A DNA stretch of 64,000 nt from a bacterium UBP8_UBA817 (GTDB lineage: Bacteria; Margulisbacteria; Marinamargulisbacteria; UBA817), in the NCBI GenBank assembly GCA_002296285.1, contig DBHX01000055.1:297-64296 (forward strand), read 5' to 3'. A model generated the notes under the pieces. That model made no database searches. It was not told the DNA's origin and was given only the letters and a program-made list of their open reading frames with translations. How positions within the stretch are numbered: the stretch's first letter is position 1; every line of letters begins with the position of its first letter. The position numbers were made by a program, and so were the translations under genes. This document shows positions 6,007 through 40,448 of this stretch, piece by piece.

Positions 6007-6255
6007 ATGGAATTTATAGGCGATGATCAGGCCCCTGTTGTTTTTATGTCTGAACCAGAATCAGCGCATATGAGTGTTCGCTGCCTAACGTTTTCTCGAA
6101 AATACCCCACAGGGAGAACGATTGTATATAAAGGGACGGCGTCGTCACCCGTTGTAAGAGACCCAAATGGAAAGGTTTCTAAATATGAGTCTATGGTTAC
6201 AGATCATATGGTTACAGATGATCCTAATGCTTCCTCTTACTGCGTCATAAGTTAA
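6007..6255 (+). CDS. Small hypothetical protein, copy B of the tandem paralog pair. The ORF track gives a start of 5947 in a different frame from copy A.
   Basis: It is paralogous to copy A. An internal Met (MEFIGDD) lies at the position homologous to MQYMAGGD of copy A. Confidence 0.3.
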   Translation: MEFIGDDQAPVVFMSEPESAHMSVRCLTFSRKYPTGRTIVYKGTASSPVVRDPNGKVSKYESMVTDHMVTDDPNASSYCVIS

Positions 6256-6321
6256 TGGCTGTGGTGTCTAATTTAGGATGATAACGTATGGGTTAAACGG
6301 TTGGGGTCATTGATGCCATCG

Positions 6322-8976: not shown

Positions 8977-9210
8977 TTCAAACAACTTTAAACCCATGCA
9001 ACTGGTGACAAATTGTGACCGAAAATGTGATCGCAAATAAGCTCAATATCATACCAGCATACAAGTAATACTTGTGAACTGAATGAGTTTAAATTCCAAA
9101 AAACCCCAATTGGAAGTCGCAATTTGCGACATCCAATTATCTAAAAAATAGGGCAACTTTCAAGAAATCCTTGATAGTTCAAATGACTTTAAATCGACGC
9201 AACTGGTTAC
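8977..9210. repeat. A pair of imperfect 33-bp direct repeats (8977-9009 and 9178-9210) bracketing two perfect 15-bp palindromes.
   Basis: DR1 is TTCAAACAACTTTAAACCCATGCAACTGGTGAC and DR2 is TTCAAATGACTTTAAATCGACGCAACTGGTTAC, matching at 27/33 positions. The palindromes are ACAAGTAaTACTTGT at 9061-9075 and GTCGCAAtTTGCGAC at 9116-9130. DR2 overlaps the 3' end of fic. Confidence 0.5.
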
Positions 9211-10307
9211 GTGTTAAGATCATCTAAAAATTGAAGGGTATATCGAGTTGATTTCAAGTGCCCAGTTTTCTTTAAGATATGTAGTTCAACAAGGTGTTGA
9301 AGGTCTCTTGTTGCGGTAGCTCTGGATGTTTTCGAAATTTTAATGTAGTTTTCAGAACTTAACCCGCCTTTAAATCCACCTAACCCTTCATCAAATATTC
9401 TTAAAAGCACCATTGTCTGTCGTTTATTTAACTCTGGATGAGAACGTATTTCTGATTTTTTAACGATAAATTGAATCAATTTAATGGTATGTTTTTGAGC
9501 CATTAGAATGGTGTCGCTAAAATAGTTGATCCAACGATTAATGTTTAATGTTCGATTGTTTTTCTCGAATTGCAAATAATACTCGCGTTGATTTTCAAAT
9601 ATGACTTTTGATAACGACATTAAGGTTGGGGTTTCGGTGTGTTCAGAGATTATTTTTTTAACCAATGCTCGCCCAATGCGACCATTGCCATCTTCAAATG
9701 GATGAATGGATTCGAAATAAAAATGGGCAATGCTTGCACGTATCAAGCATGGTAATGGCGCTTTGCCATTGGGAGATGTGTCATTAAACCACTGAATGTA
9801 CATATCCATTTCAGCTTTTACATTGGATGATGGCGGTGCTTCAAAATGAACCTTTGGGTGTCCAATATTGCCCGATACAATCTGCATGGGCTCATTCCCA
9901 GATCGGTACCTCCCAGGCCGTATATTTTTGTCGTGCCCACAAACTCTTTTGTGAAGTTCGTATAAATAGGAGTGACTGAGCTTTTTTTTATAGTTCGAAT
10001 AAATAAATATCATCATGTTTGAAACCCCACGCTCTTTTTCAGGGATTTTTTCATTGGTTTGAATGCCGAAGTTTTTTTTAATCGAGGATTGAATGCTTTT
10101 TCGATCCAGGTACTCACCTTCGATTTCACTTGTTTTGAGCGCTTCTTCAGATATTAGTTCAATTTCAATGTCCTTAAGCGAATCCCTATTAATAACACTT
10201 ATTGCACCAGTCATAAGACTGGCTTGTTTAATGAATTCGATTTCTTTTTCATTATCAATAGAAAAATTAAATGTTGGCCATTCAGGTTGTTCCCAGTTCC
10301 ATTTCAT
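9207..10307 (-). CDS. fic: Fic family protein (AMPylator/Doc-like).
   Basis: The canonical Fic motif HPFx(D/E)GNGR is present as IHPFEDGNGRIGRAL. The protein is 366 aa. Confidence 0.88.
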   Translation of the reverse strand: MKWNWEQPEWPTFNFSIDNEKEIEFIKQASLMTGAISVINRDSLKDIEIELISEEALKTSEIEGEYLDRKSIQSSIKKNFGIQTNEKIPEKERGVSNMMIFIYSNYKKKLSHSYLYELHKRVCGHDKNIRPGRYRSGNEPMQIVSGNIGHPKVHFEAPPSSNVKAEMDMYIQWFNDTSPNGKAPLPCLIRASIAHFYFESIHPFEDGNGRIGRALVKKIISEHTETPTLMSLSKVIFENQREYYLQFEKNNRTLNINRWINYFSDTILMAQKHTIKLIQFIVKKSEIRSHPELNKRQTMVLLRIFDEGLGGFKGGLSSENYIKISKTSRATATRDLQHLVELHILKKTGHLKSTRYTLQFLDDLNT

Positions 10308-11205: not shown

Positions 11206-11395
11206 GGTGATACTTTATCTTAAATTGATGTTTGAATACAATATAAGTTGTGAATTTATCGATATATGTTGTGAAAGGGCATGATTGAAAGGGTCGGTGT
11301 TGAGTTGATTTGGTTCATTTTATTGTATTTTTTGACGACTTTACATGTTTTCACGTATAATTTGAATAGATTCAACACCTTGGAGATAACAACCT

Positions 11396-12136
11396 ATGGC
11401 AGGTCATAATAAATGGTCGAAAGTTAAACATATAAAAGCCAAAGAAGATGCAAAAAAAGGCAAGGCATTTTCAAAGGTTGGTCGTGATATTACCATTGCG
11501 GCGCGTCAAGGTGGGGATAACCCAGACATGAACCCGGCGTTGCGTTTGGCCATACAAAAAGCCCGAGATGTCAATATGCCCAAAGACAATATCCAGCGTG
11601 CCATTGAAAAAGGTGCTGGTACAGGTGAGGGGAATGCATTGGAAGAAATTATCTATGAAGCCTATGCGCCCGGTGGGGTGGCCATTTTGATTCGATCCTT
11701 AACAGACAACAAAAACCGAACGGTTCCCAATGTTCGTGCCGCGCTATCAAAGGCCGGTGGTAGTTTGGCCAGTTCCGGTGCTGTGAGCTACTTGTTTGAG
11801 AAAAAAGGGGTGCTGTTGTTTGATGATGATTGTGATTCTGATCATGTCATGGAATTGGCCATTGAGTCGGGGGCCGATGATGTGGATGTGCAGGATGATG
11901 GTTCCGTTGAAGTAACCACCACTCCCGAGGGGTTTGAGTCTGTGGTTGCCGCATTTAACGCGTCTTCTGTGGGGTATTTGGACGCCTCAATTGAGATGGT
12001 ACCTCAAACCCGCATTTTATTGGACATTGAAAAGGCAAAGGGTTTTTTAAAACTCATCGATAAGTTGGAAGACGATGACGATATCCAAGACGTTTTTCAT
12101 AATGCAGAGTTTCCCGATGAGGCCGTGGAGGGTTAG
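11396..12136 (+). CDS. yebC: YebC/PmpR family DNA-binding transcriptional regulator.
   Basis: An N-terminal MAGHNKWSKVKHIKAKEDAKKGKAFSK segment that is diagnostic of the YebC family. The protein is 246 aa. Confidence 0.9.
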   Translation: MAGHNKWSKVKHIKAKEDAKKGKAFSKVGRDITIAARQGGDNPDMNPALRLAIQKARDVNMPKDNIQRAIEKGAGTGEGNALEEIIYEAYAPGGVAILIRSLTDNKNRTVPNVRAALSKAGGSLASSGAVSYLFEKKGVLLFDDDCDSDHVMELAIESGADDVDVQDDGSVEVTTTPEGFESVVAAFNASSVGYLDASIEMVPQTRILLDIEKAKGFLKLIDKLEDDDDIQDVFHNAEFPDEAVEG

Positions 12137-15100
12137 ATGAAGCGGTTACTAATTGGTTTGTTTGTACTTCTTTTTTCGGTGGATGGATTTTCGGCCATTA
12201 CTGTATCCGATTTTGAACAAATTAATCTCGGTCGTGTTATTCGAGAAACTGAAACGGGTGCATTAAAGTTTGTGATTGTATCTGATGAGGCTGCTGGTGA
12301 GGTATGGACCCAATTAAAAATAAATAGTGTCAATCTGTTTGATGCTTCAGACCAATCAAAAATTACGGATGTTAATTTGTATTATGATGATGGTGATGGG
12401 GTATTTGATTCTGGCGATTCTGGCGATTCTGTGATTTCTGTAACAAAAACAATTACTGCAGATAATTTTGAATTTGATTTTACGGAATCCATCGATACGA
12501 CTCAAAAAACAATCATTATTACGTTTAAATCGGGTTCAACGATTCCTTTAACATCGGCCCCGGATATTCAACTAACTGAGTTGAATGGTGGTACAGCCGC
12601 AAATGGAATACAAACGGCTGCTAAAAAAATAGATATTGTTGGGCTGGATGTTGCTTTTGACGATTTGTCATCGGTCGAAGAGCTTGTTTATGATGCTGAC
12701 GCAACTAAGTTTCCTTTGCTTGAATTTAAATTAACGCCGGATACTGGTGAAGCTGGTTATTTTATTGAAAATATTATTGTTAACAATAGTCAAAATAACT
12801 TTGATGCAACAGAAACAAATCATGGGGTATCTGCTTTGCACTTATATAAAGAATCAGATGATGAGGCTGCTGATCCACCTGTTACCTTTGATGCTTCAAC
12901 AGACACCTTACTTAAGTCGATTACGAATGTTAGTGGTGATCCTGTGACCTTTAACTCCACAAATGCAGCCACCTTTTCATTTGATTTATCTGATGGCGAT
13001 AACCGAAAAATTACGGATAAAAAAACATTTTACGTTGTGGCGGATGTTGGCCCATCAACAAACATTGAAATCAATGACACGGCAGTCCAAATAAATGCGA
13101 AGGTGACAAGCTTAACAGGCACAGGTGTGGGCTCAAGTTATTCCTATGGGCCAATTAATATTTCCGGTGAAGACCATAATAATCGATCGGTTTCTTTGGC
13201 GGGCATGATCATTAAATCTGTTGAAAATATTTTTCCGAGCATGAACGCGGCTGCGGGATTAATCGATATTCCCATTTTAAAGTTTGTTGCTAAGTCGGTG
13301 GGTGTAAAGACACGTTTAAAGAAATTGGTCATAAGCAACGATGCCAATACGTTTGATGTTAATTCAAACCAATCTGGGATTACCAATTTGTCCCTGGTTT
13401 TAGAAGATGGTTGTGACACAAACCCACCAAGCTATGATTCTGACTCATGTTTGGGCGAGTATACTGGTTATGGGGTTGACGGACCAAATAATAGCCCTAA
13501 CTTGGATAGCATCATTGAAGATGCTGATGCGTCAAATTATTCAGAGAAAATTACAGAGATTGGTGTCGGTAAAACATCAAATTCTTTTTTTCAAATTACG
13601 AGTGAGTCTTCTGCAACGTTTGATCATATTGGCACCGGAACGGCGGCAGGTGCTTTTAAAGAATTTGATGATGACATTGGGACGAACCTTGATGTAGATA
13701 CTGGTAAAGAGAGGGCGTTTTACATTTTGGCCGATTTTGGTGCGAATATGAGTTCTGGGCAGTCCGTGAGTTTGAACATAAGTGCGGATACCAGGGCGAG
13801 TTATGATAATAATTCTGATAATGATTATACAAATGATGATAATTATAGTGCGTTAAAAATTGGGTCATCATTACCTTTAACAGTGGCACCTACCCAATCG
13901 ATTACGGTTGTTGATCCTCAGTTAACCATCAAAACACCTTTGGATGTGGCCATTGGGGACAATGAGGTTGGGCTTTTTTGTGATACAGATATGGATGCCA
14001 ATTGCACGAATGGTGCTGGCGGCACAAAGAAGTTGGTGGCGGGCATGTATGATGTGCTGATGTATGTGTTTGATTTCGATGCCTCGATTTCATTATCTGG
14101 GGTTTCTTTTGAATTTCAATCCCCCAACCGCTATTTTAGTCAGGAAAGCATTGGCATATCAAAACTATCGCTGTATTTAGACAAAGACAAAAATGGGGCC
14201 TTGGGGTCTGGCGATATCTTTTTGGGGTCTACGGATGCCTTTACTAATTCGGGCAAGACAGGAACGATTTCAAATGTTTCTTTGCCACAGGGAAAGGATC
14301 AAAAATTATTGTTGTTGTTTGATATTGGGCAACGTGTGTCAGATTCAACGGATCAACTGTCTATTCAGTTATCCAATGTGATTGCTTCTGATAATGTTGT
14401 TGCCGGAATGTTTCCCAATCCCATTTCGCCGTACACGTATAATGTGGTGGCGCATAAACTGAAATTGCAAAAATTAATATCGGATATTTCTGATACCAAT
14501 GTGATTACCCAAGCGTCAACGTTTGATGTAACGGCGTACGTTGAGCCAACAGAGGAAGTAGATGAGCATGAAATTCAATTGATTCAGGTGGGGTCTACGG
14601 GCGTTCCCTTATCGAGCCCTAAATTTTATTTGGGTGGGGTGTCCGGTAGCAATCGCACCTATGAGTTTTCTCACACTTTTTTGCCTGATGTGAGTTATGC
14701 AGCGAACAATTTATTTGATAATCATGATACAGACTCGTTGGGTGCTGGTGTTGCGCTCAATTTGGTGTATCGTGTATCGGCTGCAAACATTACATCGGAA
14801 GGCAATTACCTGATTGACTTTGATGTTTATTATAAGATGACGGATGAGGCTTATTTGTTATCGTCAAGAACAACCAATGAACCAGTGAATATACGATTGA
14901 CCCGTTCGAAAGGGGCGGGCACGGATTATAAATCAGCCGTTGCGTTATCGGGAAGTAGCAGTGAGGCCAAGAGTGACAAAATCACACCATCGATGACCAC
15001 AACAAATAAAGTGTATACCTGGTCACTTCCAGCCTATATTGAATCGGTGTCGGTTCAAGTCAATAATACCTTTACCTCATTTAACAATTATCAGTCGGTG

Positions 15101-15682
15101 CCTCAAAATGCACAATTAAAGATTCAATTTATCGATAGTGGGCAAGATATTGACCCCAGTTCGTTATCGTTGCAATTGAATGGCACCACCCTTAAATCGG
15201 AGTCCGAGATATCGGTCAATTCATCGGAGGCCTATTATGAGTATGATGCGTTGTCTGGCGAGTTATTGGTGAGCTCCATTGGGGATGCCAGTGGCACATT
15301 GACTGTATCAGCGAATGATAATTTTGGACAGGCCTATCCGTCAGCCCCATTGATTTTCTTTACGAGTGCCACGTTGGAAATTGAAAAGTTTTTTGTGTAT
15401 CCCAATCCGTTTTCCCCATCCATTCGATCATCTGGCGTGACTTTTGGGTTCTCATTAACCCAATCCGCGACAGTGAGTATTAAGGTATATGATGCCATGG
15501 GCCGTGAAATTAGTCAGGTGCCAGCACAAACCCTTGGTATGGGGTATCAAACCATAAGTTGGGATGCCATTATTGCTTCATCATCAAAATTTATACCTTC
15601 TGGCACCTATTATTTGAAACTAACGGCAACGGATACCGATGGGGCTTCGAAAGTGGCGACCACGAAATTGGCGGTGTATTGA
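12137..15682 (+). CDS. Large secreted Asp-rich (Ca-binding-like) protein with a C-terminal T9SS-CTD/FlgD-Ig-like sorting domain.
   Basis: A signal peptide (MKRLLIGLFVLLFSVDGFSA) and D-x-D-G-D-rich motifs (YYDDGDGVFDSGDSGDS). The C-terminal beta-sandwich segment (FFVYPNPFSPS...VTFGFSLTQSATVSIKVYDAMGREI...GTYYLKL) resembles the Por-secretion CTD/FlgD-Ig family. Confidence 0.7.
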   Translation: MKRLLIGLFVLLFSVDGFSAITVSDFEQINLGRVIRETETGALKFVIVSDEAAGEVWTQLKINSVNLFDASDQSKITDVNLYYDDGDGVFDSGDSGDSVISVTKTITADNFEFDFTESIDTTQKTIIITFKSGSTIPLTSAPDIQLTELNGGTAANGIQTAAKKIDIVGLDVAFDDLSSVEELVYDADATKFPLLEFKLTPDTGEAGYFIENIIVNNSQNNFDATETNHGVSALHLYKESDDEAADPPVTFDASTDTLLKSITNVSGDPVTFNSTNAATFSFDLSDGDNRKITDKKTFYVVADVGPSTNIEINDTAVQINAKVTSLTGTGVGSSYSYGPINISGEDHNNRSVSLAGMIIKSVENIFPSMNAAAGLIDIPILKFVAKSVGVKTRLKKLVISNDANTFDVNSNQSGITNLSLVLEDGCDTNPPSYDSDSCLGEYTGYGVDGPNNSPNLDSIIEDADASNYSEKITEIGVGKTSNSFFQITSESSATFDHIGTGTAAGAFKEFDDDIGTNLDVDTGKERAFYILADFGANMSSGQSVSLNISADTRASYDNNSDNDYTNDDNYSALKIGSSLPLTVAPTQSITVVDPQLTIKTPLDVAIGDNEVGLFCDTDMDANCTNGAGGTKKLVAGMYDVLMYVFDFDASISLSGVSFEFQSPNRYFSQESIGISKLSLYLDKDKNGALGSGDIFLGSTDAFTNSGKTGTISNVSLPQGKDQKLLLLFDIGQRVSDSTDQLSIQLSNVIASDNVVAGMFPNPISPYTYNVVAHKLKLQKLISDISDTNVITQASTFDVTAYVEPTEEVDEHEIQLIQVGSTGVPLSSPKFYLGGVSGSNRTYEFSHTFLPDVSYAANNLFDNHDTDSLGAGVALNLVYRVSAANITSEGNYLIDFDVYYKMTDEAYLLSSRTTNEPVNIRLTRSKGAGTDYKSAVALSGSSSEAKSDKITPSMTTTNKVYTWSLPAYIESVSVQVNNTFTSFNNYQSVPQNAQLKIQFIDSGQDIDPSSLSLQLNGTTLKSESEISVNSSEAYYEYDALSGELLVSSIGDASGTLTVSANDNFGQAYPSAPLIFFTSATLEIEKFFVYPNPFSPSIRSSGVTFGFSLTQSATVSIKVYDAMGREISQVPAQTLGMGYQTISWDAIIASSSKFIPSGTYYLKLTATDTDGASKVATTKLAVY

Positions 15683-17949
15683 TGGTGAAATATTTATTTC
15701 TTTGGTTAATCTGTGCACTTCCAATTTTGGGTCAAACAACGCAGATGGGGGCCGTGAATATTCAAACATCCATGACATCAGCGGACATTGCATCGTTTGG
15801 TCGCATTACGCCATATGAAACCCAATCGATTGGCAATGTGCTTATTAATCCCGCCTCGTTGGGTGGCATTTCATTTAATCAAATGACGGTGTCCACCTAT
15901 CAATTGTCATCGCAGTTTGATTATCGTCATTTTAATTTTGTTATTCCTTATGGTGATTTGGTGTATGGGATTTCTTATGGTACCAATATTACTTCAGGGT
16001 TTATTGAAACGGACATAAACAATGGGGTGATTTATGATATCGGATCATTCTCCTCAGGTTTTGACGTGTTGCATTTGTCAATGGGGCAAAAAATTAATGA
16101 AGGGTTTTTCTTTATTGATCACTTTAATTATGGGTTTGGTTTGAGTATGTTGACGCAGGTGATCGGTTCCGAGCGTCGTTCACCCGGGTATGGACTGGAT
16201 GTTGGCGTGATTGCCACGACATTTTTTGATCAGTTTTGGTTGGATCGTGTGGATGTTGGGTTTTCCGTTATTAATGCCGTATCCACGGGGTTGCCGTCTT
16301 GGACCTATGATGCCAATGTGGGGACCAGTGAGCAACAGTTGATTGAACGACAAATCTATACCGGTGCAAAGTTTAATTTATTTAACTATTCAACGGCCAT
16401 TCATACGGGCGCCTATGTTCAAGGATTTTCGTTAAGAGATCTAATGTTTGGGATGGATTTTCAAGTAGCGAATGGCTTAAATGTGCGATTATCTACAACT
16501 TATGATATGTTGCAGGGACAGGAATTTATTTATAATTTTGGGTCAGGGCTCATGTTAAAACGTGTCGCAGGGTTTGGGAACAGTGTGTATGATATGTCGG
16601 TGGACTATAATTACACCATGTACCCGTTCCCGAGGTCCAATGATCCATCACATACCATTAGTATGACATTTTTAGGTCAATCAACCGATCAACGACCGGT
16701 GGTTCTTCTTCCTGAAAAATCCTATGATACCGATCAACCAACCGCTAGTTTTTCGGGAACGTCTGATCGCAATGCCTTTATTTATATTTACAATGGTGAA
16801 AGCTTGGTTGGCCAAGTGGCGGCGAATAATAATGGGAAATGGGAAGTCAATGATTTGTTTTTAGATGTTGGATATAACGCCATTACGTTTCGTTCAAAGT
16901 CGGGTACGAATGATTTGTCCAAACCATCCCCTCCGGTTGTTGTCCATTTTGATCAAAGCCCCCCTGTAATTTCAACTGAACTTGATATTATGTCGGATCA
17001 GGTATCCATTCGCTTGACATCAAATGAACCATTAAAAGAAGCACGCTTGGTATCTGGCAATGAAACCTTGCGATTCAAAAAGATTTCGGATGCGATCTAT
17101 ACATTGGCGGTTCCATTGCCCCCTGAAATGAAGTCTGGAAACCCATTGCCAGAAAAAATGATGTCCTATGATATCGTTGCCATGGATCGCATTGGCAATC
17201 AATCACCCACAGAATCCGTTTCTTTTTTTGTTGAACCGTTATTTCCAGCGGATCAAGCGGTAGTGTATAACGATGCCATTACCGTATTGGGGTATGCGTC
17301 GCCTTATGTGGAGGCTATTTCTGTGAACGGGAAACGCATTGAAACCGATAAAAACAATGGGTTCTCAAAATCCGTGCAATTGAATTATGGGAAGCAATTG
17401 GTTGAATTAAATGTGAAAACAAGAAATGGGCAGCGGTTGAACTATTATGCTCGGTTATTGTGCATGAAGCGTTTTTCAGATATTCCAAAGTTTGCAAAGT
17501 ATCGTCGTGATATCGAGTTCTTAGCCACTCTTGGGTATGTGTCCGGAAAAGACGATGGATTATTTCATCCGGAAGAAGAAATGACACGACGGGATGTTAC
17601 ATTGGCCATTGCAAAACAACGAAATATTGAGCCCAAGGCATTGGATTATGACCCATTCTTGGATGTTTCTAAATCAGATCCTGATGCTGGGATTATATCT
17701 GCAGCCGTTGATGCCGGCATTACTTATGCATTTGCAGATGGTACTTTTAAACCGGATGAAAAGGTATCCGTTGCCAATGCTTTTAAGATGTTAAATAACT
17801 CCGGTGTGATTGATAGTGAGGATATTGTTGTGAGTAAAAAGCCCATTAAGCGGTATGAATTTGCGCTTTATTTTAAACAAGTTCGTCGTTATGATCAGCG
17901 GGTGATTTACCTGATGGATTGGGACCAGGGGTATAAACTTCCGAAGTAA
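15682..17949 (+). CDS. Beta-rich envelope protein with Ig-like domains and C-terminal SLH (S-layer homology) domains. The start was corrected to the ATG that overlaps the upstream stop (TGATG).
   Basis: A signal peptide (MVKYLFLWLICALPILG) and an N-terminal beta-rich region with alternating hydrophobic residues. Two C-terminal SLH-like segments are present: FSDIPKFAKYRRDIEFLATLGYVSGKDDGLFHPEEEMTRRDVTLAIAK, and DPDAGIISAAVDAGITYAFADGTFKPDEKVS. Confidence 0.65.
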   Translation: MVKYLFLWLICALPILGQTTQMGAVNIQTSMTSADIASFGRITPYETQSIGNVLINPASLGGISFNQMTVSTYQLSSQFDYRHFNFVIPYGDLVYGISYGTNITSGFIETDINNGVIYDIGSFSSGFDVLHLSMGQKINEGFFFIDHFNYGFGLSMLTQVIGSERRSPGYGLDVGVIATTFFDQFWLDRVDVGFSVINAVSTGLPSWTYDANVGTSEQQLIERQIYTGAKFNLFNYSTAIHTGAYVQGFSLRDLMFGMDFQVANGLNVRLSTTYDMLQGQEFIYNFGSGLMLKRVAGFGNSVYDMSVDYNYTMYPFPRSNDPSHTISMTFLGQSTDQRPVVLLPEKSYDTDQPTASFSGTSDRNAFIYIYNGESLVGQVAANNNGKWEVNDLFLDVGYNAITFRSKSGTNDLSKPSPPVVVHFDQSPPVISTELDIMSDQVSIRLTSNEPLKEARLVSGNETLRFKKISDAIYTLAVPLPPEMKSGNPLPEKMMSYDIVAMDRIGNQSPTESVSFFVEPLFPADQAVVYNDAITVLGYASPYVEAISVNGKRIETDKNNGFSKSVQLNYGKQLVELNVKTRNGQRLNYYARLLCMKRFSDIPKFAKYRRDIEFLATLGYVSGKDDGLFHPEEEMTRRDVTLAIAKQRNIEPKALDYDPFLDVSKSDPDAGIISAAVDAGITYAFADGTFKPDEKVSVANAFKMLNNSGVIDSEDIVVSKKPIKRYEFALYFKQVRRYDQRVIYLMDWDQGYKLPK

Positions 17950-17956: not shown

Positions 17957-18859
17957 ATGATGACGACGCTTAGGGTAGGTCTTATGGGCGCAGGGGCAGT
18001 GGGTTGTTTTTACGCGGGGCATATGGCCAAAAAAGGGGCCCAGGTCACCATTTTAACGCGATGCCCTGAGGTGTATGATTCACCCATTTGTATTAACTCG
18101 GTGAATGGTGATTTTTCATTTACACCTGCCGCTATTCGATCCATTCATGAGCCTGTCGATGTTGATGTGCTTATTCTTGCGACCAAGGCCTTGCCGTCCA
18201 TTGATCAAGTGGCATTGATTCGGCCATTTATGTCAAACCAAACAAAGTTGATGGTGATTCAAAATGGGATTTTTGTTGAAGATGATTTGTTGAAGGCGTT
18301 TCAGCAACCCATATTTCGTTGTTTGGCCTTTATATGTGTGTCTCGTTTATCACGAACCCAAATTCATCATATGGATTTTGGGGCACTGTCCATGGGGTGC
18401 TTAAATGCTGATTTGGATTTATTTTCTGAGGACCCGTTGATCGACTTGCTAAAGGATTTGGATATTCCGTTTCGATTGACGCAGCGTATTCAACAATCGA
18501 TATGGGAAAAACTGGTATGGAATGCGCCGTTTAATCCACTGTCTGTGCTTTGTGGTGGGCTTACAACGGAGCAATTACTTATGGATTCTGATATTACAGC
18601 ACGCGTGATTGCCATTATGAAAGAGGTTCAATTGGTTGCCACTAGCGCCGGTGTGACCATTACCGATGACTTTATTCAACAAAAAATCGAACAAACCCGA
18701 CAAATGGCGCCGTATAAAACCAGCATGTGTTTGGATTATGAGGCGGGTTTGGCGATTGAGGTGGATGCTATTTTAGGAAACCTGTTAAACTATGCGGATC
18801 AACAGTCGGTTCATATCCCTCAAATTTATCGTCTTTACAATGACCTGAAGACATTGTGA
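17957..18859 (+). CDS. panE: 2-dehydropantoate 2-reductase (ketopantoate reductase, ApbA/PanE family).
   Basis: An N-terminal Rossmann motif (LMGAGAVGCFYAGHMAKKGAQVTILTR) and a C-terminal ApbA_C-like region. The protein is 300 aa. Confidence 0.78.
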   Translation: MMTTLRVGLMGAGAVGCFYAGHMAKKGAQVTILTRCPEVYDSPICINSVNGDFSFTPAAIRSIHEPVDVDVLILATKALPSIDQVALIRPFMSNQTKLMVIQNGIFVEDDLLKAFQQPIFRCLAFICVSRLSRTQIHHMDFGALSMGCLNADLDLFSEDPLIDLLKDLDIPFRLTQRIQQSIWEKLVWNAPFNPLSVLCGGLTTEQLLMDSDITARVIAIMKEVQLVATSAGVTITDDFIQQKIEQTRQMAPYKTSMCLDYEAGLAIEVDAILGNLLNYADQQSVHIPQIYRLYNDLKTL

Positions 18860-21937: not shown

Positions 21938-24900
21938 ATGACATCTTTAAATCGGTTTTTATTTGGATGTGTTTTTTTTCTTATGCTGTGGGGCGGCCCA
22001 CAGGTTTTTGCTGAGCGATTTTATTCCATTAATAATACCTTGCCCTCAAATGTGGTCATATCTGGGGTGATTCATCCGGATGATGAGAGGACTTACAATG
22101 GCGAATATGAGGCTTTGTTGGAGTTTTTTAACGACGATGGGAGTGCCCCAACCGTTAATGTCACAAAACAAGTGACATTTCATCAAAATTATTTTCGAGT
22201 TCAAGTGGATTTGGTGTCCATTTTACATTCCATGTTTTTACATCGAAAAAAAATGTTTGTTCGCTTGAGCATTGATGATGTCAATATTACGTTGCCATTT
22301 GCATCCGTTCCAGTCACCATTAAATCGGGGCTGGCCACAACCACCAATCGAATGATTGACGATAATGTGATGTCAATTGACTATGATCAACAACGGATTG
22401 GCATTGGTACCAGCGTTCCTTCGAGTACGGTGCATGTGGTTGGCACGGTGAATGCCACTGAGTTTTTTGTGGGTGATGGATCACAATTAACCAACTTAAA
22501 GTATGCCGGTGGGGATAATTATAATTTTTTAAAATCTCAAAACGGTGAGTTTGTGGTTATTACCGTGAATGCCATTGGAAAAATGATGGTGGGAGGTCGC
22601 ATGGGGGTGGATATTCCAAAATATGATTTGCAAGTGTATGGATCGTTGCTTGTTGAACCCAACGAAAGGGTGTCTTCGGACATTATTTCGGGCGCTGGTT
22701 CTCGGTGGATGTGGTATTCTGATCGATCAGTATTGCGAATTGGGTATACGCCGTCTATCTACTGGGATGACGCCTACAGTGGGGATGACTCCATTGCGTT
22801 TGGGTATGCCACCATCGCGCAAGGCAATCATTCCATTGTTGGTGGAGGGTATTACAACTTGGCCCAAGCCGATTGGGCGGTCATTGCTGGAGGAAGTGAT
22901 AATATCATTCGTGGTGAACAGGGGATCATTTTGGGTGGTCAAAAAAATACCATTCGTAGTGAATCATCCATTATTTTGGGTGGTCTTGATAATATTGCCA
23001 GTAAAAATGCCGTTGTGCTGGGTGGGTTTGACAACGCATCCTTTGGTGTTGGTGGGGTTGTTTCCGGATATAGAAATTTTTCTTCTGGTGAGGAAATTCT
23101 GATTTTGGGTGGAAAAAATAATACGGGGTTTGCTCCGAAATCGTATTTAATTGGATCCAACATCACCACTTTAGAAGAGCATTCCCACTCCCTTTTGATT
23201 AATGCCTCAAATACATCCGATGAATCGGTGGTTTCCAGTCATATAAAAATTAAGGCGCCTGCTGGGGTTGGTATTGGTACCAATGAGACGCTTTCAAATG
23301 GATTAACCATTCAAGGTGCGGTGTCGGCAAATATGCTTTATGGTGATGGGAGTCAAATTCAAAATTTGAAAAATCCACAAAGTGCATGGACCCCACACCC
23401 ATTGGATCCGAATTTTTTAACTTATCCTCATCGATTGGGCGTGTTAACGCGTGATTTATTGGAGTCGTTGAATGTTAGTGGAAGCATTCATTTGTCTGGG
23501 GTTGCTCAACCCGATGCTGGGACCATTCGTTATGAGAATGATGATTTTTCTGTGTATAAAACAGGAATTGGTTGGGTCAGTTTGACAATGAGTGATACGG
23601 ATACCACCTACAATGCAATAGAGAGCATGGTGTTGGATGATTCAAATTTGACGTTTTATATTGCAACTCAAAATGCCATCATTGGACAGGTAAAGAAGTG
23701 GAATGGGCAATATTGGGATCATGACTATTTGGATCAATTTATTGAAGAACCTGAATTGTCGAGATTTAATGATGTGAGCTTGCCCAAACGGTTGTATTTG
23801 CCCACCGGTGATGTGGCCATTAATTTGGGTGTTGACCCTTCAAATTTAACCCCGTTTAATGCGCCATTTACAGTAATTACAAAACCGAATAAATCAACAG
23901 GGCTCTATTTATTTGACAATAATTCTGATAGTGAAAAGATGATTTCACTGTCCGTGTCTCCACCAGGACTTCACTTTCAGGCCTATTATGATGGGGGCAT
24001 GTTTCGACAGACCAATCAAGATGGCGGTGGCATTGTTCAACATGGCAATACCTTATCGATGTATGTGGATGATGCGACCGGTGTGGCGGTGAATGGGCTG
24101 TCCATATCGTCAACGAATATTCGAATTTTTGAGGGGGATTTTAATGATCCCTCGGTTCCTTTTTATGTGGGGGGTGATATGACATCAAAATCGTTTGTAT
24201 TTCATACAGACCTAGACGGTGTTGGTATTTATTTGAGAGCGCCGTATATGCAAAATAATAATGATCGATCGGTGTTGTTTCACCAAAAAAATGATGGGGA
24301 ACTATTTATTCAATCGGTGGATCAGAGCGGTGATATGATTTTTCGGAATTACCAAGGCCAAATGGCTGTTCTTCGATCATCCACGAATGGGAAGACCAAG
24401 TTTGGGCTTACCAGTGGATCGGTACGATCAGGGCTTGATATTGAAATGGGCGATACCCACGTTTCCGATGGGTATGGGATTCAATTTAACCAACAATCGG
24501 TAAAAAAATCAGGCATTACGTTTGATTCGTCAGATTCAAAAAGAATTCAAATTCATACATCATCTGAATTTGATGTCCCAAATGTTGAAGTCTCTGAGTT
24601 GGGCAACGTTGGATTTAATGGCCCGGTCAATGATGCCCATGATTTGGTGGTTAATGCCGTGTCAGGTCGTCAATCCATTGTTCAAATTGATACGGTTGCG
24701 GCACAAAATCCGGGATTATTGCTGCAATCCGATGGGGTGGCTGGCGATAGTGACGATGGTGATTTTTCGGATCTTCGAGAATCTTACTTCTTTGGATCAA
24801 GTGGCGATTCATTAACGCTAAATGAAGGTGATAAGTCGGCCATGATGATTTCTCAAGATGGGTATGTTGGCGTGTATGATTTAACCCCAACATCGGCCTT

Positions 24901-27664
24901 ATCCATTGGTTCCGATGTGGTTATGCTGAATCAGTCTGGGGTTTATATGAAAGACTCTGATGGGACCAGTGCGCCGTTGATTGTGATGAATGATGATACC
25001 GTGCAATTAAAATCATCCAATAACTTGCAACTATTTGATTCGAATGGGTTCATTTCATTGAGTATCAATAACTCTGGGGTGGCCATTAATCGCCATAAAT
25101 TACTGACCCAACTTAATGCGCAGCCGATTGGGCTTGAAGTCAGCGGTTCGGTGATGATTAATGGGGACATTTTTAATTCTATTGGTGATAAGATTTTTCC
25201 ATTGGATGTTTCAAATGTCGAGCGGACGACCACTGCATCAATGATCAATACGATTCACATTGATACTGCATCCGGACTTACATTGGAGGGTGACAATTTA
25301 GCGAATAAGTTAATTGTTAAAGGTGCAGGGTATTACAATCGAATTAAGTTACCGAATGGAGATATTTTATCAGCCACTAAAAATATGGACCTTCGACTGG
25401 TTGGGCGAGGGATTACCGTGACCTCAAATAATTATGAGGACCAAGGGACGCTTGCTGTTAATGACACCCTAAAATTACTTAATGATTTAATTTCTGGTGG
25501 TGAAATTAAAAGAGATTTAACCGTTCAGGGAAATTTTCGTCTGATCAATGATAAGATCTACGGGAATGCGGCTGGTTTAACCAATATTCCATTTCATTGG
25601 CAGCATGTGACGCGCAATAATACGACCATTCCTGATTTGCCAGGGGCGCATCCAGATACGTATTCGGATGAAGGTGAAATTTATTACATGCTTGGTAATG
25701 TTGGGATTCATACCCATGCGCCATCCACACTTTTTGAGGTGGTTGGGACATCGTCGATTAAGGAATTGATTGTGCCAACAAAATTACTGGTGTCAGATGT
25801 TGTATCAACAGGCAATTTATATTTTGATGCGGCAAAAAAAATGGCGTTTAGATCCAATCAAGGGAATATTATTTTTGGGCGAAATGCAGCGAGTGAGTCC
25901 CTTCCAAATTTTTCTCCTTGGATGATGTTCACCGAGGATTCTCAATGGCTCATTGGTACAAATTATTCGAATTATCTCATCGATATTGGTAAAGGTAGTG
26001 CGAATGATGAAACTGAAGTGCGTATTGAGTCAGATCCTGGCATGCAGATTGATTTTAATCGGCGATTATCTGATGTGTGGCTTCAATTGGGGTATGATGA
26101 TACGGGGGCACGTTTTGATCGAACGTTTGATAACGCTAATATTCAAGTCAGTGCCTCAAATTCCATGGGATTTTATACCAATCATTCCACCAATTCCATT
26201 TTTATGAGCGAGAATGGTCATGTTGGTATTTTTACCAATCAACCGAAAAATTCATTGGATATCAATGGCGAGATGTCCATCGGGTATGAGGTTCAAGCCC
26301 CACCCAATGGGTTGATTGTAAAACGTTTGGTGGGGGTTGGTATGAATCCAGAGAATTTACCGCTTTATCCATTAGAGGTGAGTGGGTCGGTCATTGTTGG
26401 TGAACCGTATGTTGCTGGCATTTCCTCTGGTTTTTTTATTAATGGTGATGGGTCTTATCGATTATTTGTTGGTGGTGATCCCATCGGTAGTGAAAAGGTG
26501 TTTTTTAATAATCATTTATCCATCAAAGATGGGGCACTTTATATTCGTGAAGGGATTGATGCTGGAACTGAAATTATTCGTGATAGTACCACGGCCAAAG
26601 TGGATCAATGGAATCAAGTGGAAGCCAGTAAAGGGTTAAAAATTAATGCCACCAAAGATATGTCATTTAAGACGTTTGATGGTTCTCAATGGAATGATGA
26701 ACTGGTGATTAATTCTGTTGGCCAGTTTGGCATAGGAACGGTTCCAAATCAACCACTCCATATTTTTGATAATGATAATGATGTGAGTGTTAAGATCAAA
26801 TCAAGCAGTGAATCTTTGATTCATTTAAGATATGACAGTTATCAAGCCATGATTGGAACAACGTCTGACGGCTTTCAAATAAAGACCAATTCGTCGTCAT
26901 TTGCAAATTCTGAATTAACGATTGTTCAAAATAAAGTGGGGTTTAATCAAAGTAACCCTGATTCAAATTATAAAGTTGAGGTTGGTGGAACGGTGAATGC
27001 CATGGACTATTGGATTAAGGATCAATACACGGCATCTGGGTTTCGCTCGTTTCAAACGGTTCCAACCGGTGTGGTTGTTTTGTGGTTGGGCACAGGTACG
27101 CTTCCTACGGGATGGGCCGAATGCAATGGGTCCAATGGGTGTCCCAATATGGCGGATCGATACGTTAAAGGATGGGATGGTTCATCATCAAATTTGCAAG
27201 GATTTGGTGGTTCAAACGATGGGGTGTTATCGGCCACAACCCATGATCATACCAGCGCATCGCATTACCACCGATTAACCAGCCCCGGCCATTCTCATGC
27301 CGTCAATGTTGATAATCATCGAGTGAATACCCATTTAAATAATGATAATGCGTATCGTGATGGGGCGGATACTACGGGTAGTAGTTACACTATTTTGACT
27401 GATTTAGGTAGTCATCGGCATTCATTGGATTATACCCACAACCACAATGGGATTACCTTTACCGGTGGTGTGCATGGTGCTAACCATAATGACTCTGATT
27501 CGGAATCTCATGGCCATGGTGGATCCAATGCCAGTTCGTCTGATACCAAGACGGTAGGGACGGGTAGCAATGCACTGGGAAATAACGGGGATCAGCATCA
27601 GCACACATTTGATAACAAACCTCAGTCAAGGTATGTTCGGTTTATCGTAAAGGTGGATGAGTAA
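21938..27664 (+). CDS. Giant secreted tail-fibre-like protein of 1908 aa with a C-terminal phage tail-collar domain that contains His-rich HxH inserts.
   Basis: A signal peptide, the fibre motif QRIGIGTSVPSSTVHVVG...FVGDGSQLTNL, and a Gly/Asn beta-roll repeat block at nt ~22790-23160. The C-terminal collar domain (nt ~27058-27661) reads VVLWLGTGTLPTGWAECNG...RYVKG... followed by multiple HxH motifs and ends ...DNKPQSRYVRFIVKV. Confidence 0.78.
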   Translation: MTSLNRFLFGCVFFLMLWGGPQVFAERFYSINNTLPSNVVISGVIHPDDERTYNGEYEALLEFFNDDGSAPTVNVTKQVTFHQNYFRVQVDLVSILHSMFLHRKKMFVRLSIDDVNITLPFASVPVTIKSGLATTTNRMIDDNVMSIDYDQQRIGIGTSVPSSTVHVVGTVNATEFFVGDGSQLTNLKYAGGDNYNFLKSQNGEFVVITVNAIGKMMVGGRMGVDIPKYDLQVYGSLLVEPNERVSSDIISGAGSRWMWYSDRSVLRIGYTPSIYWDDAYSGDDSIAFGYATIAQGNHSIVGGGYYNLAQADWAVIAGGSDNIIRGEQGIILGGQKNTIRSESSIILGGLDNIASKNAVVLGGFDNASFGVGGVVSGYRNFSSGEEILILGGKNNTGFAPKSYLIGSNITTLEEHSHSLLINASNTSDESVVSSHIKIKAPAGVGIGTNETLSNGLTIQGAVSANMLYGDGSQIQNLKNPQSAWTPHPLDPNFLTYPHRLGVLTRDLLESLNVSGSIHLSGVAQPDAGTIRYENDDFSVYKTGIGWVSLTMSDTDTTYNAIESMVLDDSNLTFYIATQNAIIGQVKKWNGQYWDHDYLDQFIEEPELSRFNDVSLPKRLYLPTGDVAINLGVDPSNLTPFNAPFTVITKPNKSTGLYLFDNNSDSEKMISLSVSPPGLHFQAYYDGGMFRQTNQDGGGIVQHGNTLSMYVDDATGVAVNGLSISSTNIRIFEGDFNDPSVPFYVGGDMTSKSFVFHTDLDGVGIYLRAPYMQNNNDRSVLFHQKNDGELFIQSVDQSGDMIFRNYQGQMAVLRSSTNGKTKFGLTSGSVRSGLDIEMGDTHVSDGYGIQFNQQSVKKSGITFDSSDSKRIQIHTSSEFDVPNVEVSELGNVGFNGPVNDAHDLVVNAVSGRQSIVQIDTVAAQNPGLLLQSDGVAGDSDDGDFSDLRESYFFGSSGDSLTLNEGDKSAMMISQDGYVGVYDLTPTSALSIGSDVVMLNQSGVYMKDSDGTSAPLIVMNDDTVQLKSSNNLQLFDSNGFISLSINNSGVAINRHKLLTQLNAQPIGLEVSGSVMINGDIFNSIGDKIFPLDVSNVERTTTASMINTIHIDTASGLTLEGDNLANKLIVKGAGYYNRIKLPNGDILSATKNMDLRLVGRGITVTSNNYEDQGTLAVNDTLKLLNDLISGGEIKRDLTVQGNFRLINDKIYGNAAGLTNIPFHWQHVTRNNTTIPDLPGAHPDTYSDEGEIYYMLGNVGIHTHAPSTLFEVVGTSSIKELIVPTKLLVSDVVSTGNLYFDAAKKMAFRSNQGNIIFGRNAASESLPNFSPWMMFTEDSQWLIGTNYSNYLIDIGKGSANDETEVRIESDPGMQIDFNRRLSDVWLQLGYDDTGARFDRTFDNANIQVSASNSMGFYTNHSTNSIFMSENGHVGIFTNQPKNSLDINGEMSIGYEVQAPPNGLIVKRLVGVGMNPENLPLYPLEVSGSVIVGEPYVAGISSGFFINGDGSYRLFVGGDPIGSEKVFFNNHLSIKDGALYIREGIDAGTEIIRDSTTAKVDQWNQVEASKGLKINATKDMSFKTFDGSQWNDELVINSVGQFGIGTVPNQPLHIFDNDNDVSVKIKSSSESLIHLRYDSYQAMIGTTSDGFQIKTNSSSFANSELTIVQNKVGFNQSNPDSNYKVEVGGTVNAMDYWIKDQYTASGFRSFQTVPTGVVVLWLGTGTLPTGWAECNGSNGCPNMADRYVKGWDGSSSNLQGFGGSNDGVLSATTHDHTSASHYHRLTSPGHSHAVNVDNHRVNTHLNNDNAYRDGADTTGSSYTILTDLGSHRHSLDYTHNHNGITFTGGVHGANHNDSDSESHGHGGSNASSSDTKTVGTGSNALGNNGDQHQHTFDNKPQSRYVRFIVKVDE

Positions 27665-40270: not shown

Positions 40271-40403
40271 AAAAAAGATTTGAAATGCCTCAACCGATGG
40301 AATGGAATTGATCAAAATATCATTCGGAGATAGGGAGGGGTCAAAGGCTTAGCATGTGACCCCATCATATCGAATCGCAACGATTTGAGGCTAAATTAGG
40401 GAT

Positions 40404-40448
40404 AATGGCACAGTGTGCAATAAAACAATAAATGGCACAGTGTGCCAA
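40404..40448. promoter_or_regulatory. Two copies of AATGGCACAGTGTGC, each containing the inverted repeat GGCACA-G-TGTGCC, spaced 27 bp apart.
   Basis: The copies sit at 40404-40420 and 40431-40448, just left of the iteron origin. Confidence 0.4.

What the first reader, a model, noticed from the sequence alone, without database searches (positions are those of the whole stretch)
12137..17949. A translationally coupled pair just upstream of the fibre array: a Ca-binding secreted protein with a T9SS/FlgD-Ig-like C-terminal domain, and an envelope protein with C-terminal SLH domains.
The 1181-aa protein has a signal peptide, many D-x-D-G-D calcium-binding-like motifs and a C-terminal beta-sandwich (YPNPFSPS...SIKVYDAMGREI...GTYYLKL). 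This resembles Por-secretion CTD and FlgD-Ig sorting domains. Its stop overlaps the start of the next gene (TGATG at 15680-15684). That next protein has a signal peptide, a beta-strand-rich N-terminal half that could be a barrel, Ig-like middle domains and two C-terminal SLH motifs. SLH domains tether proteins to pyruvylated cell-wall polymers. Finding them at the C-terminus, after a putative barrel, is the reverse of the usual OmpM/Omp-alpha layout. The pair may be a cargo with its anchor or a dedicated export-and-anchoring module. Its position directly 5' of the fibre operon, with only panE between, hints at functional linkage to the fibres.
Basis: partly seen in the sequence, partly recalled or inferred. 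Interest (0 to 1): 0.6.

Follow-up and report, generated by a model that had tools for sequence, protein, structure and literature searches.

The report
PorV-like wall-anchored barrel with partner protein
Two overlapping genes in a marine Margulisbacteria genome encode a large secreted protein with a type-IX-secretion-style sorting tail and an outer-membrane barrel related to PorV, the protein that holds such tails, fused to a cell-wall anchor; this combination has not been described and lies outside the bacterial group where type IX secretion is known.

Summary
The two genes, their TGATG overlap, the C-terminal sorting-type domain and the SLH domains are real. The "many D-x-D-G-D calcium motifs" are not.

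Gene B's N-terminal third is a beta-barrel. [quoted passage not shown] Three Ig-like domains and an SLH module follow it.

Gene A is an all-beta protein. Its last ~95 residues score as a T9SS type A / FlgD-Ig domain, the kind of domain that PorV and PorQ bind.

The organism is a Candidatus Marinamargulisbacterium, from a phylum sister to Cyanobacteria. T9SS is reported only from the Fibrobacteres-Chlorobi-Bacteroidetes (FCB) superphylum.

The A-B pair, mostly with a 1-nt stop/start overlap, is conserved in all nine related loci examined. In the four most distant loci the downstream genes are unrelated, so linkage to the fibre genes is not supported.

Best reading: a cargo and its cognate anchor. 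The barrel sits in the outer membrane, is tied to the wall by an Ig spacer plus SLH, and holds gene A by its tail. Docking, surface exposure and absence of a T9SS translocon are inferred, not shown. I rate this a new variant of known kinds, of moderate-to-high interest.

The parts
11332..11361 (+). Best sigma-70-like promoter match (TTGACG-18-TATAAT) upstream of yebC. It is a possible start of a yebC-geneA-geneB-panE transcript.
   Evidence: This is a consensus match only (11 of 12 positions). The number of sites in the region is not above shuffled expectation, and no convincing terminator lies between yebC and panE.
11396..12136 (+). yebC/pmpR-family gene. Its stop codon abuts the gene A start, and a GGAGG lies 5 nt before the gene A ATG.
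   Evidence: (NF001030, 322 bits). yebC lies directly upstream of the pair in L002-L006, L008 and the JGI 3300072015 locus.
12137..15682 (+). Gene A: 1181-aa Sec-exported all-beta protein. The N-terminal ~350 aa are variable and the C-terminal ~600 aa are conserved. It is the proposed cargo or surface partner.
   Evidence: Orthologues are 822-1181 aa. Gene A diverges faster than gene B (64% against 83% identity to SCGC AG-343-K17).
12137..12196 (+). Signal peptide of gene A (aa 1-20, MKRLLIGLFVLLFSVDGFSA).
   Evidence: Read from the sequence. No predictor was run.
14180..14215 (+). The only EF-hand-like loop in gene A (DKDKNGALGSGD, aa 682-693). It is largely conserved among the closer orthologues and degenerates in the most divergent one aligned.
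15395..15679 (+). C-terminal T9SS type A / FlgD-Ig-like beta-sandwich of gene A (aa 1087-1181). It has YPNPFSPS, GREI, SGTYYLKL and a terminal KLAVY.
   Evidence: TIGR04183 17.9-29.7 bits in five of six orthologues scanned. (FlgD_ig in four of these, Por_Secre_tail in one, nothing in L006). (profile hits FlgD at 4e-7, the PorZ CTD at 1e-3 and the PorU CTD at 1.5e-3). (one copy per locus).
15680..15684 (+). TGATG stop/start overlap of gene A and gene B.
   Evidence: The same 1-nt overlap (TGATG or TAATG) is read in L002, L003, L005 and L008, and the called coordinates of the JGI locus show it too. L006 abuts as TAA|TTG.
15682..17949 (+). Gene B: 755-aa envelope protein with the order signal peptide, PorV/PorQ-like barrel, three Ig-like domains, SLH module.
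15739..16686 (+). PorV/PorQ-family (FadL-like) outer-membrane beta-barrel domain (aa ~20-335). It includes the N-terminal segment with the conserved NPASLGG motif (aa 56-62). The last strand, HTISMTFLG, resembles a beta-signal.
   Evidence: about 15 consecutive antiparallel strands over aa 67-331, block pLDDT 55-81. (Foldseek: PorV chains 8gl6_F and 6h3i_F give the lowest E-values among barrels, followed by OmpG, FapF and FadL). (family profile against PDB PorV, E 2.9e-7). (relatives hit NF033709 down to 5e-23). (hhalign 99.9%).
16714..17466 (+). Three tandem Ig-like beta-sandwich domains (aa 345-425, 426-520, 521-595). The third is Glucodextran_B-like. They are the proposed periplasmic spacer.
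   Evidence: PF09136, 34.6 bits; pLDDT 81-91 across most of the second and third domains; SiiE and Bap BIg-type hits.
17467..17946 (+). C-terminal SLH module (aa 596-755). It has two full SLH motifs plus a degenerate third helix pair. It is the proposed anchor to the wall or to pyruvylated secondary cell-wall polymer.
   Evidence: PF00395, 63.3 bits, 2 stretches; six helices over aa 608-744; the most conserved part of the protein.
17957..18859 (+). panE (2-dehydropantoate 2-reductase), 7 nt after gene B. It is a neighbour in Marinamargulisbacteria only and is not part of the conserved module.
   Evidence: It is absent downstream of the pair in L006, L007, L008 and ERZ27297570.

Best explanation
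This is a conserved two-gene envelope module of Margulisbacteria.

Gene B is exported by Sec. Its N-terminal domain inserts into the outer membrane as a PorV/PorQ-family (FadL-like) beta-barrel. A barrel's two ends lie on the periplasmic side, so the rest of the chain hangs into the periplasm. Three Ig-like domains act as a rigid spacer, and a C-terminal SLH module grips the peptidoglycan-linked secondary cell-wall polymer. Gene B is therefore an outer-membrane-to-wall tether. It is built like OmpA (barrel first, wall binder last) but uses the SLH anchor typical of Terrabacteria.

Gene A is translated from the same message by stop/start coupling and is also exported by Sec. It is a long chain of beta-sandwich domains that ends in a T9SS type A / FlgD-Ig-like domain. 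That tail docks non-covalently on the gene B barrel, as the uncleaved tails of PorU and PorZ dock on PorV and PorQ in the type IX attachment complex. Gene A is thereby held on the envelope, most likely on the cell surface with its fast-evolving N-terminal part outermost.

Shown here: the domain identities, the homology to PorV/PorQ and to T9SS/FlgD tails, the gene overlap, and conservation of the pair.

Inferred: the tail-barrel docking, SLH binding to the wall polymer, surface exposure, and how gene A crosses the outer membrane.
For: Barrel:
- The AlphaFold model has about 15 consecutive antiparallel strands over aa 67-331.
- In Foldseek against the PDB, the barrels with the lowest E-values are PorV chains of the SprA translocon: 8gl6_F (E 5.9e-7) and 6h3i_F (E 3.3e-6, TM 0.59). 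OmpG, FapF and FadL follow.
- An exhaustive HMMER scan found 113 cluster representatives. About 50 have the same barrel-Ig-Ig-Ig-SLH order.
- Distant members hit NCBIfam NF033709 'PorV/PorQ family' at E 2e-8 to 5e-23, plus the PorV2 and PorQ models.
- The window's subfamily aligns to those members at hhalign probability 99.9%, E 1e-33, over 300 columns.
- A joint profile hits PDB 'PorV' at E 2.9e-7, the only significant barrel hit.
- The shared N-terminal GAR..G.G...D....NPA motif is visible.

Tail:
- TIGR04183 scores 27.6 bits (cut-off 23) and FlgD_ig 27.3 bits (cut-off 27).
- Five of six orthologues scanned hit TIGR04183, three of them above the cut-off.
- The tail profile hits FlgD Ig domains (4e-7) and the tails of PorZ (1e-3) and PorU (1.5e-3).

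SLH and Ig domains.

Pairing:
- Gene A-like and gene B-like genes are adjacent in all nine related loci examined.
- The 1-nt overlap is seen in five of them, plus one that abuts.
- The gene A body, not only its tail, is homologous in L008 (1.6e-92) and L006 (3.5e-20).
- The tail occurs once per locus.

[quoted passage not shown] PorV binds cargo at the cell surface (PMC8754138).
Against: - The window protein itself gets no PorV/PorQ hit at E <= 0.1 in NCBIfam, and its own subfamily profile finds nothing in the PDB.
- Even the best relative (82 bits) stays under the curated NF033709 cut-off of 90.
- By TM-score OmpG (0.60-0.67) fits the barrel as well as PorV does, and barrel confidence is only moderate (block pLDDT 55-81).
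- No physical interaction was tested. A complex could not be modelled.
- The gene A model is poor (pLDDT 45) and its fold matches are non-specific.
- In T9SS the tail meets PorV outside the cell, after passage through SprA/Sov. No such translocon is known in this phylum, so how an 1181-aa protein would cross the outer membrane is unexplained. Gene A could be periplasmic.
- Conserved adjacency could reflect co-regulation of two envelope proteins without direct binding.
Confidence: 0.55

Rival explanations
1. This is a bona fide, previously unrecognised type IX secretion system in Margulisbacteria. Gene A is an ordinary T9SS cargo and gene B is the PorV shuttle of a full machine (SprA/Sov, PorKLMN, PorU) encoded elsewhere in the genome.
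For: The tail passes the TIGR04183 cut-off. The barrel is PorV/PorQ-related.
Against: Reviews place T9SS only in the FCB superphylum (PMC11205867, PMC12398890). No paper in the searched library links it to Margulisbacteria. No T9SS component is encoded in the 64-kb window or in about 170 kb of related loci. A wall-anchored SLH-fused PorV could not diffuse as a shuttle. Only one tail-bearing gene occurs per locus, always the neighbour of the barrel.
Confidence: 0.1
2. Gene B is simply this lineage's outer-membrane tether and channel, working like OmpM or OmpA and possibly taking up hydrophobic substrates as FadL does. Gene A is an unrelated periplasmic or secreted protein that shares an operon with it.
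For: Barrel plus SLH is the loose definition of an OmpM-type tether (bioRxiv 10.1101/2021.05.31.446380). The barrel also resembles FadL and OmpG, with weak Toluene_X hits in relatives. Gene B is much more conserved than gene A.
Against: This does not explain why a protein carrying exactly the kind of domain that PorV/PorQ-family barrels bind is the upstream, translationally coupled neighbour in all nine loci examined, across very different genomic contexts. The tether role itself is compatible with the best explanation and is included in it.
Confidence: 0.25
3. The pair is a flagellum-associated module, because the tail resembles FlgD and one relative sits next to flagellar genes.
For: The tail profile hits the FlgD Ig-like domain (4e-7). 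In L007 the pair abuts fliK, flgE and fliMNOPQR.
Against: Only the Ig-like domain is matched: hits to full-length FlgD models cover just that domain and score far below their cut-offs (25.7 against 230 bits). Gene A is 1181 aa, against 138-232 residues for the solved FlgD chains it matches. It has a Sec signal peptide; flagellar proteins are exported by the type III pathway (my knowledge). Eight of the nine related loci have no flagellar neighbours.
Confidence: 0.03
4. One reading: the pair is an export-and-anchoring module dedicated to the downstream fibre proteins.
For: The order yebC-A-B-panE-900aa-giants is syntenic in the Marinamargulisbacteria-type loci that extend far enough.
Against: The pair occurs without panE or fibre genes in L006, L007, L008 and ERZ27297570. 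The fibre proteins have no tail domain and no SLH. In the JGI locus a kinase gene and another gene on the opposite strand separate the 818-aa protein from the giant.
Confidence: 0.05

Closest known systems
PorU-PorV and PorZ-PorQ pairs of the T9SS attachment complex (Porphyromonas gingivalis)
   Same: A PorV/PorQ-family outer-membrane barrel holds a large protein by its C-terminal Ig-like domain (PMC5562754). Here the barrel family and the tail family (where the PorZ and PorU tails are among the PDB hits) are both matched.
   Different: The known pairs are in Bacteroidota and depend on the SprA/Sov translocon; the phylum here is Margulisbacteria. As far as I know and as far as the searched literature shows, no SLH-fused PorV or PorQ has been described, whereas gene B carries three Ig domains and an SLH anchor. 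The window protein is below the curated family cut-offs. Here the two genes overlap and are always adjacent.
OmpM / SlpA / cyanobacterial SLH-porins (outer-membrane tethers of diderm Terrabacteria)
   Same: One polypeptide joins an outer-membrane barrel to an SLH domain. In the characterised non-Firmicute cases that domain binds pyruvylated wall polymer. Such proteins are reported in Cyanobacteria and their sister clades, including Margulisbacteria (bioRxiv 10.1101/2021.05.31.446380).
   Different: The order is reversed (barrel N-terminal, SLH C-terminal). The spacer is made of Ig domains, whereas in OmpM it is, to my knowledge, a coiled-coil stalk. The barrel is PorV/FadL-like, not a porin of the OmpM type. 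There is an obligate tail-bearing partner gene.
OmpA
   Same: The layout is the same: an N-terminal barrel, then a periplasmic C-terminal wall-binding domain.
   Different: The wall binder is SLH, not OmpA_C. The barrel is larger and of a different family. Three Ig domains are inserted between barrel and wall binder.
SprB/SprF-type cargo and barrel gene pairs (type B CTD cargo next to a PorP/SprF-like barrel in Flavobacterium). This comparison is from my own knowledge and was not checked here.
   Same: A large surface protein gene is followed directly by the gene for its cognate outer-membrane barrel.
   Different: The tail is type B rather than type A, the barrel belongs to the PorP/SprF family, the system depends on T9SS, and there is no SLH domain.

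Membership tests
SLH domain (PF00395) | The HMM score reaches the gathering threshold, with repeated motifs. | tested here: met
   63.3 bits against 20.8, two stretches from aa 597. The model shows six helices over aa 608-744.
SLH domain (PF00395) | Binds pyruvylated secondary cell-wall polymer, with CsaB pyruvyl transferase present in the genome. | not testable with these tools
   Only 64 kb of the genome is available, and no PS_pyruv_trans hit was seen among the ORFs scanned. Co-occurrence of CsaB and SLH in diderm Terrabacteria is reported in bioRxiv 10.1101/2021.05.31.446380.
T9SS type A sorting domain (TIGR04183) | The HMM score reaches the curated cut-off, and the domain lies at the extreme C-terminus of a Sec-exported protein. 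| tested here: met
   27.6 bits against 23, aa 1087-1168 of 1181. Orthologues score 27.2, 25.8 and 29.7 (above the cut-off) and 19.4 and 17.9 (below it); one has no hit.
T9SS type A sorting domain (Pfam PF18962 Por_Secre_tail) | The HMM score reaches the gathering threshold. | tested here: not met
   14.0 bits against 27. The best orthologue scores 21.8.
T9SS cargo | The genome encodes the translocon and motor (SprA/Sov, PorK/L/M/N) and the PorU sortase. | not testable with these tools
   None is present in the window or in the related loci, but whole genomes could not be scanned. T9SS is reported as restricted to FCB (PMC11205867, PMC12398890).
FlgD Ig-like domain (PF13860) | The HMM score reaches the gathering threshold. 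| tested here: met
   27.3 bits against 27, a marginal pass. Orthologues score 25.4-31.5. The tail profile against PDB FlgD gives E 4e-7.
FlgD hook-cap protein | Match to a full-length FlgD model, FlgD-like size, and flagellar type III export rather than Sec. | tested here: not met
   Full-length FlgD models are matched only over the Ig-like domain and far below their cut-offs (25.7 against 230 bits). The protein is 1181 aa and starts with a Sec-type signal peptide.
PorV/PorQ family (NCBIfam NF033709) | The HMM score reaches the curated cut-off (90 bits). | tested here: not met
   The window protein gets no hit at E <= 0.1. The best family relative scores 82.2 bits, E 4.8e-23.
PorV/PorQ family (NCBIfam NF033709) | Homologous FadL-like outer-membrane barrel with an N-terminal G-x-G...D...NPA segment. 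| tested here: met
   hhalign gives 99.9% probability, E 1e-33, to relatives that hit NF033709. The joint profile against PDB PorV gives E 2.9e-7. In Foldseek, PorV has the lowest E-value among barrels. The motif is visible.
PorV (T9SS shuttle, NF033710) | A free barrel that shuttles cargo between the translocon and the attachment complex. | tested here: not met
   No NF033710 hit beyond E 0.075 in one relative. Gene B is fused to a wall anchor, which is incompatible with free diffusion; this last point is an inference.
OmpM | N-terminal SLH, then a stalk, then a C-terminal porin barrel. | tested here: not met
   The order is barrel, Ig x3, SLH. The barrel is related to PorV/FadL, not to porins. 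Gene B does meet the loose definition of 'SLH plus barrel in one protein' used in bioRxiv 10.1101/2021.05.31.446380.
Calcium-binding repeat proteins (RTX / D-x-D-x-D-G type) | Multiple copies of the acidic Ca-binding motif. | tested here: not met
   There are no D-x-D-G-D and no D-x-D-x-D-G motifs, and one DKDKNG. No Ca-repeat family reaches significance.

The most novel reading that the evidence does not exclude
The pair is a self-contained surface-display module that works without T9SS, in a phylum sister to Cyanobacteria. A wall-tethered PorV-like barrel permanently holds, and perhaps helps to export, one dedicated tail-bearing protein, possibly the main surface-layer protein of these cells. 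This would mean that recognition of the Ig-like sorting tail by PorV/PorQ-type barrels is older and more widespread than the type IX machine. T9SS could then have recruited a pre-existing anchor-cargo pair. It would also mean that Terrabacteria have a second, non-OmpM way of tying the outer membrane to the wall.
Probability: 0.25. Interest if true: 0.8.

Novelty: new variant of a known kind. Interest (0 to 1): 0.6.

Why it matters
Two open questions become testable with a two-gene system.

First, where did the type IX secretion system's tail recognition come from? Here the PorV/PorQ-type barrel and the type A / FlgD-Ig tail occur as an overlapping gene pair in a phylum where no T9SS has been reported. 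In none of the loci examined does another T9SS gene lie nearby. That suggests a simpler, possibly ancestral or laterally acquired, anchor-cargo relationship.

Second, how do diderm Terrabacteria hold their outer membrane to the wall? The accepted tether is OmpM (SLH first, porin last). This family has the opposite order, an Ig-domain spacer and a different barrel family. An exhaustive scan found 113 cluster representatives at 50% identity.

For marine microbiology, gene A is a candidate major surface protein of uncultured Marinamargulisbacteria. Its variable N-terminal part is consistent with exposure to phage or grazer selection, though that is an inference.

If the tail-barrel docking proves wrong, what remains is a new domain architecture for an outer-membrane tether, which is useful but modest.

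Tried and rejected
- The single genome-contig scan with gene B found only an unrelated SLH protein of a Peregrinibacteria MAG (L001). The source genome or close relatives are not in that collection at pattern level.
- The word-indexed profile search with the barrel alignment returned mostly fragments. Only one distant homologue (P0028) was useful.
- The narrow barrel profile A2 found nothing in the PDB. Only the widened profile A5 reached PorV.
- The gene A model was poor (pLDDT 45, 8-sequence alignment). Its Foldseek hits (alpha-2-macroglobulin, complement, integrins; TM <= 0.16 in the top 30 hits) say only 'chain of beta-sandwiches'.
- Rejected: Ca-binding repeat protein.
- Rejected: FlgD or a flagellar role.
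- Rejected: lipoprotein. There is no lipobox, and the Cys in the gene B signal peptide is not conserved.
- Rejected: fibre proteins as further cargo.
- Literature searches for PorV with SLH, and for Margulisbacteria with type IX secretion, found nothing relevant.

Full report
**What is there.** The window carries a tightly packed, same-strand run. It consists of yebC (11396-12136), gene A (12137-15682, 1181 aa), gene B (ATG 15682 to 17949, 755 aa) and panE (17957-18859).
- The yebC stop abuts the gene A start, and a GGAGG lies 5 nt upstream of that start.
- The gene A stop TGA (15680-15682) shares its last base with the gene B ATG.
- panE starts 7 nt after gene B.
- The best promoter-like match lies upstream of yebC (11332-11361). 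No convincing terminator lies inside the run (consensus matches only).
- The surroundings are housekeeping genes: hrcA-grpE-dnaK-dnaJ, a tRNA methyltransferase, dxs and others.

**Organism.** One example is SCGC AG-343-K17, at 83% identity for gene B and 64% for gene A. This phylum is a sister of Cyanobacteria and belongs to the diderm Terrabacteria (PMC6349859; bioRxiv 10.1101/2021.05.31.446380).

- The coordinates, the overlap, the signal-peptide-like N-termini, the C-terminal beta-sandwich and the SLH motifs are all real.
- TIGR04183 (T9SS type A sorting domain) scores 27.6 bits against a cut-off of 23. Pfam FlgD_ig scores 27.3 against 27. Pfam Por_Secre_tail reaches only 14 against 27.
- SLH scores 63.3 bits in two stretches. 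It is preceded by a Glucodextran_B-type Ig domain.
- The 'many D-x-D-G-D motifs' do not exist. There are no literal matches and one conserved DKDKNG loop. Looser patterns are near shuffled expectation.

**Gene B.** An AlphaFold model built on 18 orthologues (mean pLDDT 71) shows the following:
- a low-confidence N-terminal segment (aa 1-66) that contains the conserved NPASLGG motif;
- about 15 consecutive antiparallel strands over aa 67-331 (block pLDDT 55-81);
- three beta-sandwich domains over aa 347-594 (pLDDT 81-91 across most of the second and third);
- six helices over aa 608-744, as expected for an SLH module.

In Foldseek against the PDB, the Ig part matches bacterial Ig-like adhesin domains. 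The barrels with the lowest E-values are chain F of 8GL6 and of 6H3I. OmpG, FapF and FadL follow. One search confirms that these chains are PorV of the type IX translocon.

Sequence evidence makes this homology rather than mere fold resemblance:
- An exhaustive HMMER scan with the barrel profile found 113 cluster representatives.
- Local domain mapping shows about 50 of them share the barrel-Ig-Ig-Ig-SLH order. Shorter (~600 aa) and longer (~1270 aa, extra Ig/SLH) variants also occur.
- Distant members hit NCBIfam NF033709 'PorV/PorQ family' at E 2e-8 to 4.8e-23, and also PorV2 and PorQ models. All are below the curated cut-offs.
- In Pfam the same members give weak hits to the related FadL/UPF0164/DUF5723/TraF_2 families.
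- The window's subfamily aligns to these members with hhalign probability 99.9%, E 1e-33, over 300 columns.
- A joint profile hits PDB PorV at E 2.9e-7, the only significant barrel.
- The window protein on its own hits no PorV model.

I therefore call gene B's barrel a remote homologue of the family, not a member by curated thresholds.

**Gene A.**
- Orthologues range from 822 to 1181 aa. The N-terminal third is variable and rich in indels. The C-terminal ~600 aa are conserved, and the terminal domain ends in K(L/M/W)AVY.
- The structure model is poor (pLDDT 45). It shows only an all-beta, multi-sandwich chain, and its fold matches are non-specific.
- Five of six orthologous tails hit TIGR04183, three above the cut-off. 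Four hit FlgD_ig and one hits Por_Secre_tail.
- A tail profile hits FlgD Ig domains (4e-7) and, more weakly, the C-terminal domains of PorZ (1e-3) and PorU (1.5e-3).

**Conservation of the pair.** In nine related loci a gene A-like gene sits immediately upstream of the gene B-like gene. Five of these are Marinamargulisbacteria-type relatives. Four are much more distant: L006, L007, L008 and ERZ27297570.
- The 1-nt TGATG/TAATG overlap was read in L002, L003, L005 and L008, and the called coordinates of the JGI locus show it too. L006 abuts.
- The body of gene A, not just the tail, is homologous in L008 (1.6e-92) and L006 (3.5e-20).
- The tail domain occurs exactly once per locus.
- yebC precedes the pair in seven of the nine loci.

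What follows the pair differs between near and distant loci:
- In the Marinamargulisbacteria-type loci that extend far enough, it is followed by panE, a ~900-aa protein and the giant fibre-like proteins.
- In the distant loci it is followed by SHMT, by flagellar genes, by groES/EL or by pdxA.
- The fibre proteins carry no tail domain and no SLH.

The pair is therefore an independent module. Its position next to the fibre genes is a lineage-specific neighbourhood.

**How it most likely works.** A barrel's two ends face the periplasm, so the Ig domains and SLH of gene B must be periplasmic. The barrel sits in the outer membrane, the three Ig domains span the gap, and SLH binds the wall polymer. 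That makes gene B an outer-membrane tether with the layout of OmpA and the anchor of OmpM.

The family to which its barrel belongs is the one that binds Ig-like sorting tails in T9SS. PorV binds cargo tails at the cell surface (PMC8754138). PorU and PorZ are held on the surface through PorV and PorQ respectively (PMC5562754).

The simplest reading of an always-adjacent, translationally coupled tail-bearing partner is that gene A docks by its tail on gene B's barrel. Gene A's faster evolution, concentrated in its N-terminal part, fits exposure on the surface. The docking, the exposure and the route across the outer membrane are inferences.

T9SS is reported only in the FCB superphylum (PMC11205867, PMC12398890), and I could not scan whole Margulisbacteria genomes. 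A cryptic T9SS therefore remains a low-probability rival. A periplasmic location for gene A also remains possible.

**Comparison with known systems and novelty.**
- The closest functional analogues are the PorU-PorV and PorZ-PorQ pairs.
- The closest architectural analogues are OmpM-type tethers (reversed order, different barrel and spacer) and OmpA.
- The searched literature does not mention PorV together with SLH, or Margulisbacteria together with type IX secretion.
- Public annotations call gene B 'S-layer homology domain-containing protein' and gene A 'hypothetical'.

I rate it a new variant of known kinds.

Noticed in passing
window 9207-10307 (-): A Fic/DUF4172 gene lies between the tRNA methyltransferase and the hexapeptide transferase. 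It is absent at the same position in the syntenic relatives L002-L005, so it looks like a strain-specific insertion.
   Followed up: partly
window 39598-45417 (-): A low-GC stretch (32-37% against ~41% elsewhere) lies directly after the fibre genes. It carries a D5_N/DUF5906 primase-helicase (40826-42256), two FG-GAP repeat proteins (42253-44069) and several ORFs with no family. It may be an integrated mobile element.
   Followed up: no
window 21938-38795 (+): Three tandem ~1835-1908-aa paralogues, with overlapping stops and starts, give only weak beta-roll (LbR_Ice_bind) hits. The last one has a faint phage tail Collar hit near its C-terminus (aa 1661-1683). None has a sorting tail or SLH.
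   Followed up: partly
L004 12179-12430; L005 8462-8704; JGI 3300072015 locus 6033-6284: A conserved 80-83-aa ORF sits between gene B and panE in some relatives. It is missing from the window, where only 7 nt separate the two genes.
   Followed up: no
L007 10001-13801 and downstream: A 1266-aa variant of gene B with duplicated Ig and SLH modules directly abuts a flagellar gene block (fliK-like, flgE-like, fliM/N/O/P/Q/R). Several ~1270-aa representatives share this enlarged architecture.
   Followed up: partly
window 11396-12136 and L002-L006, L008: yebC/pmpR is conserved immediately upstream of the pair, even in distant genomes. In the window its last codons contain the Shine-Dalgarno sequence for gene A. 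Regulatory or translational coupling between a YebC-family factor and this envelope pair is unexplained.
   Followed up: partly
P0024, and the L003 and L004 loci: Several database 'proteins' of this family are artefacts of frameshifted long-read assemblies. P0024 is a chimera of the gene A tail and the gene B barrel, and the genes are split in L003 and L004. Counts of short family members should be read with care.
   Followed up: no
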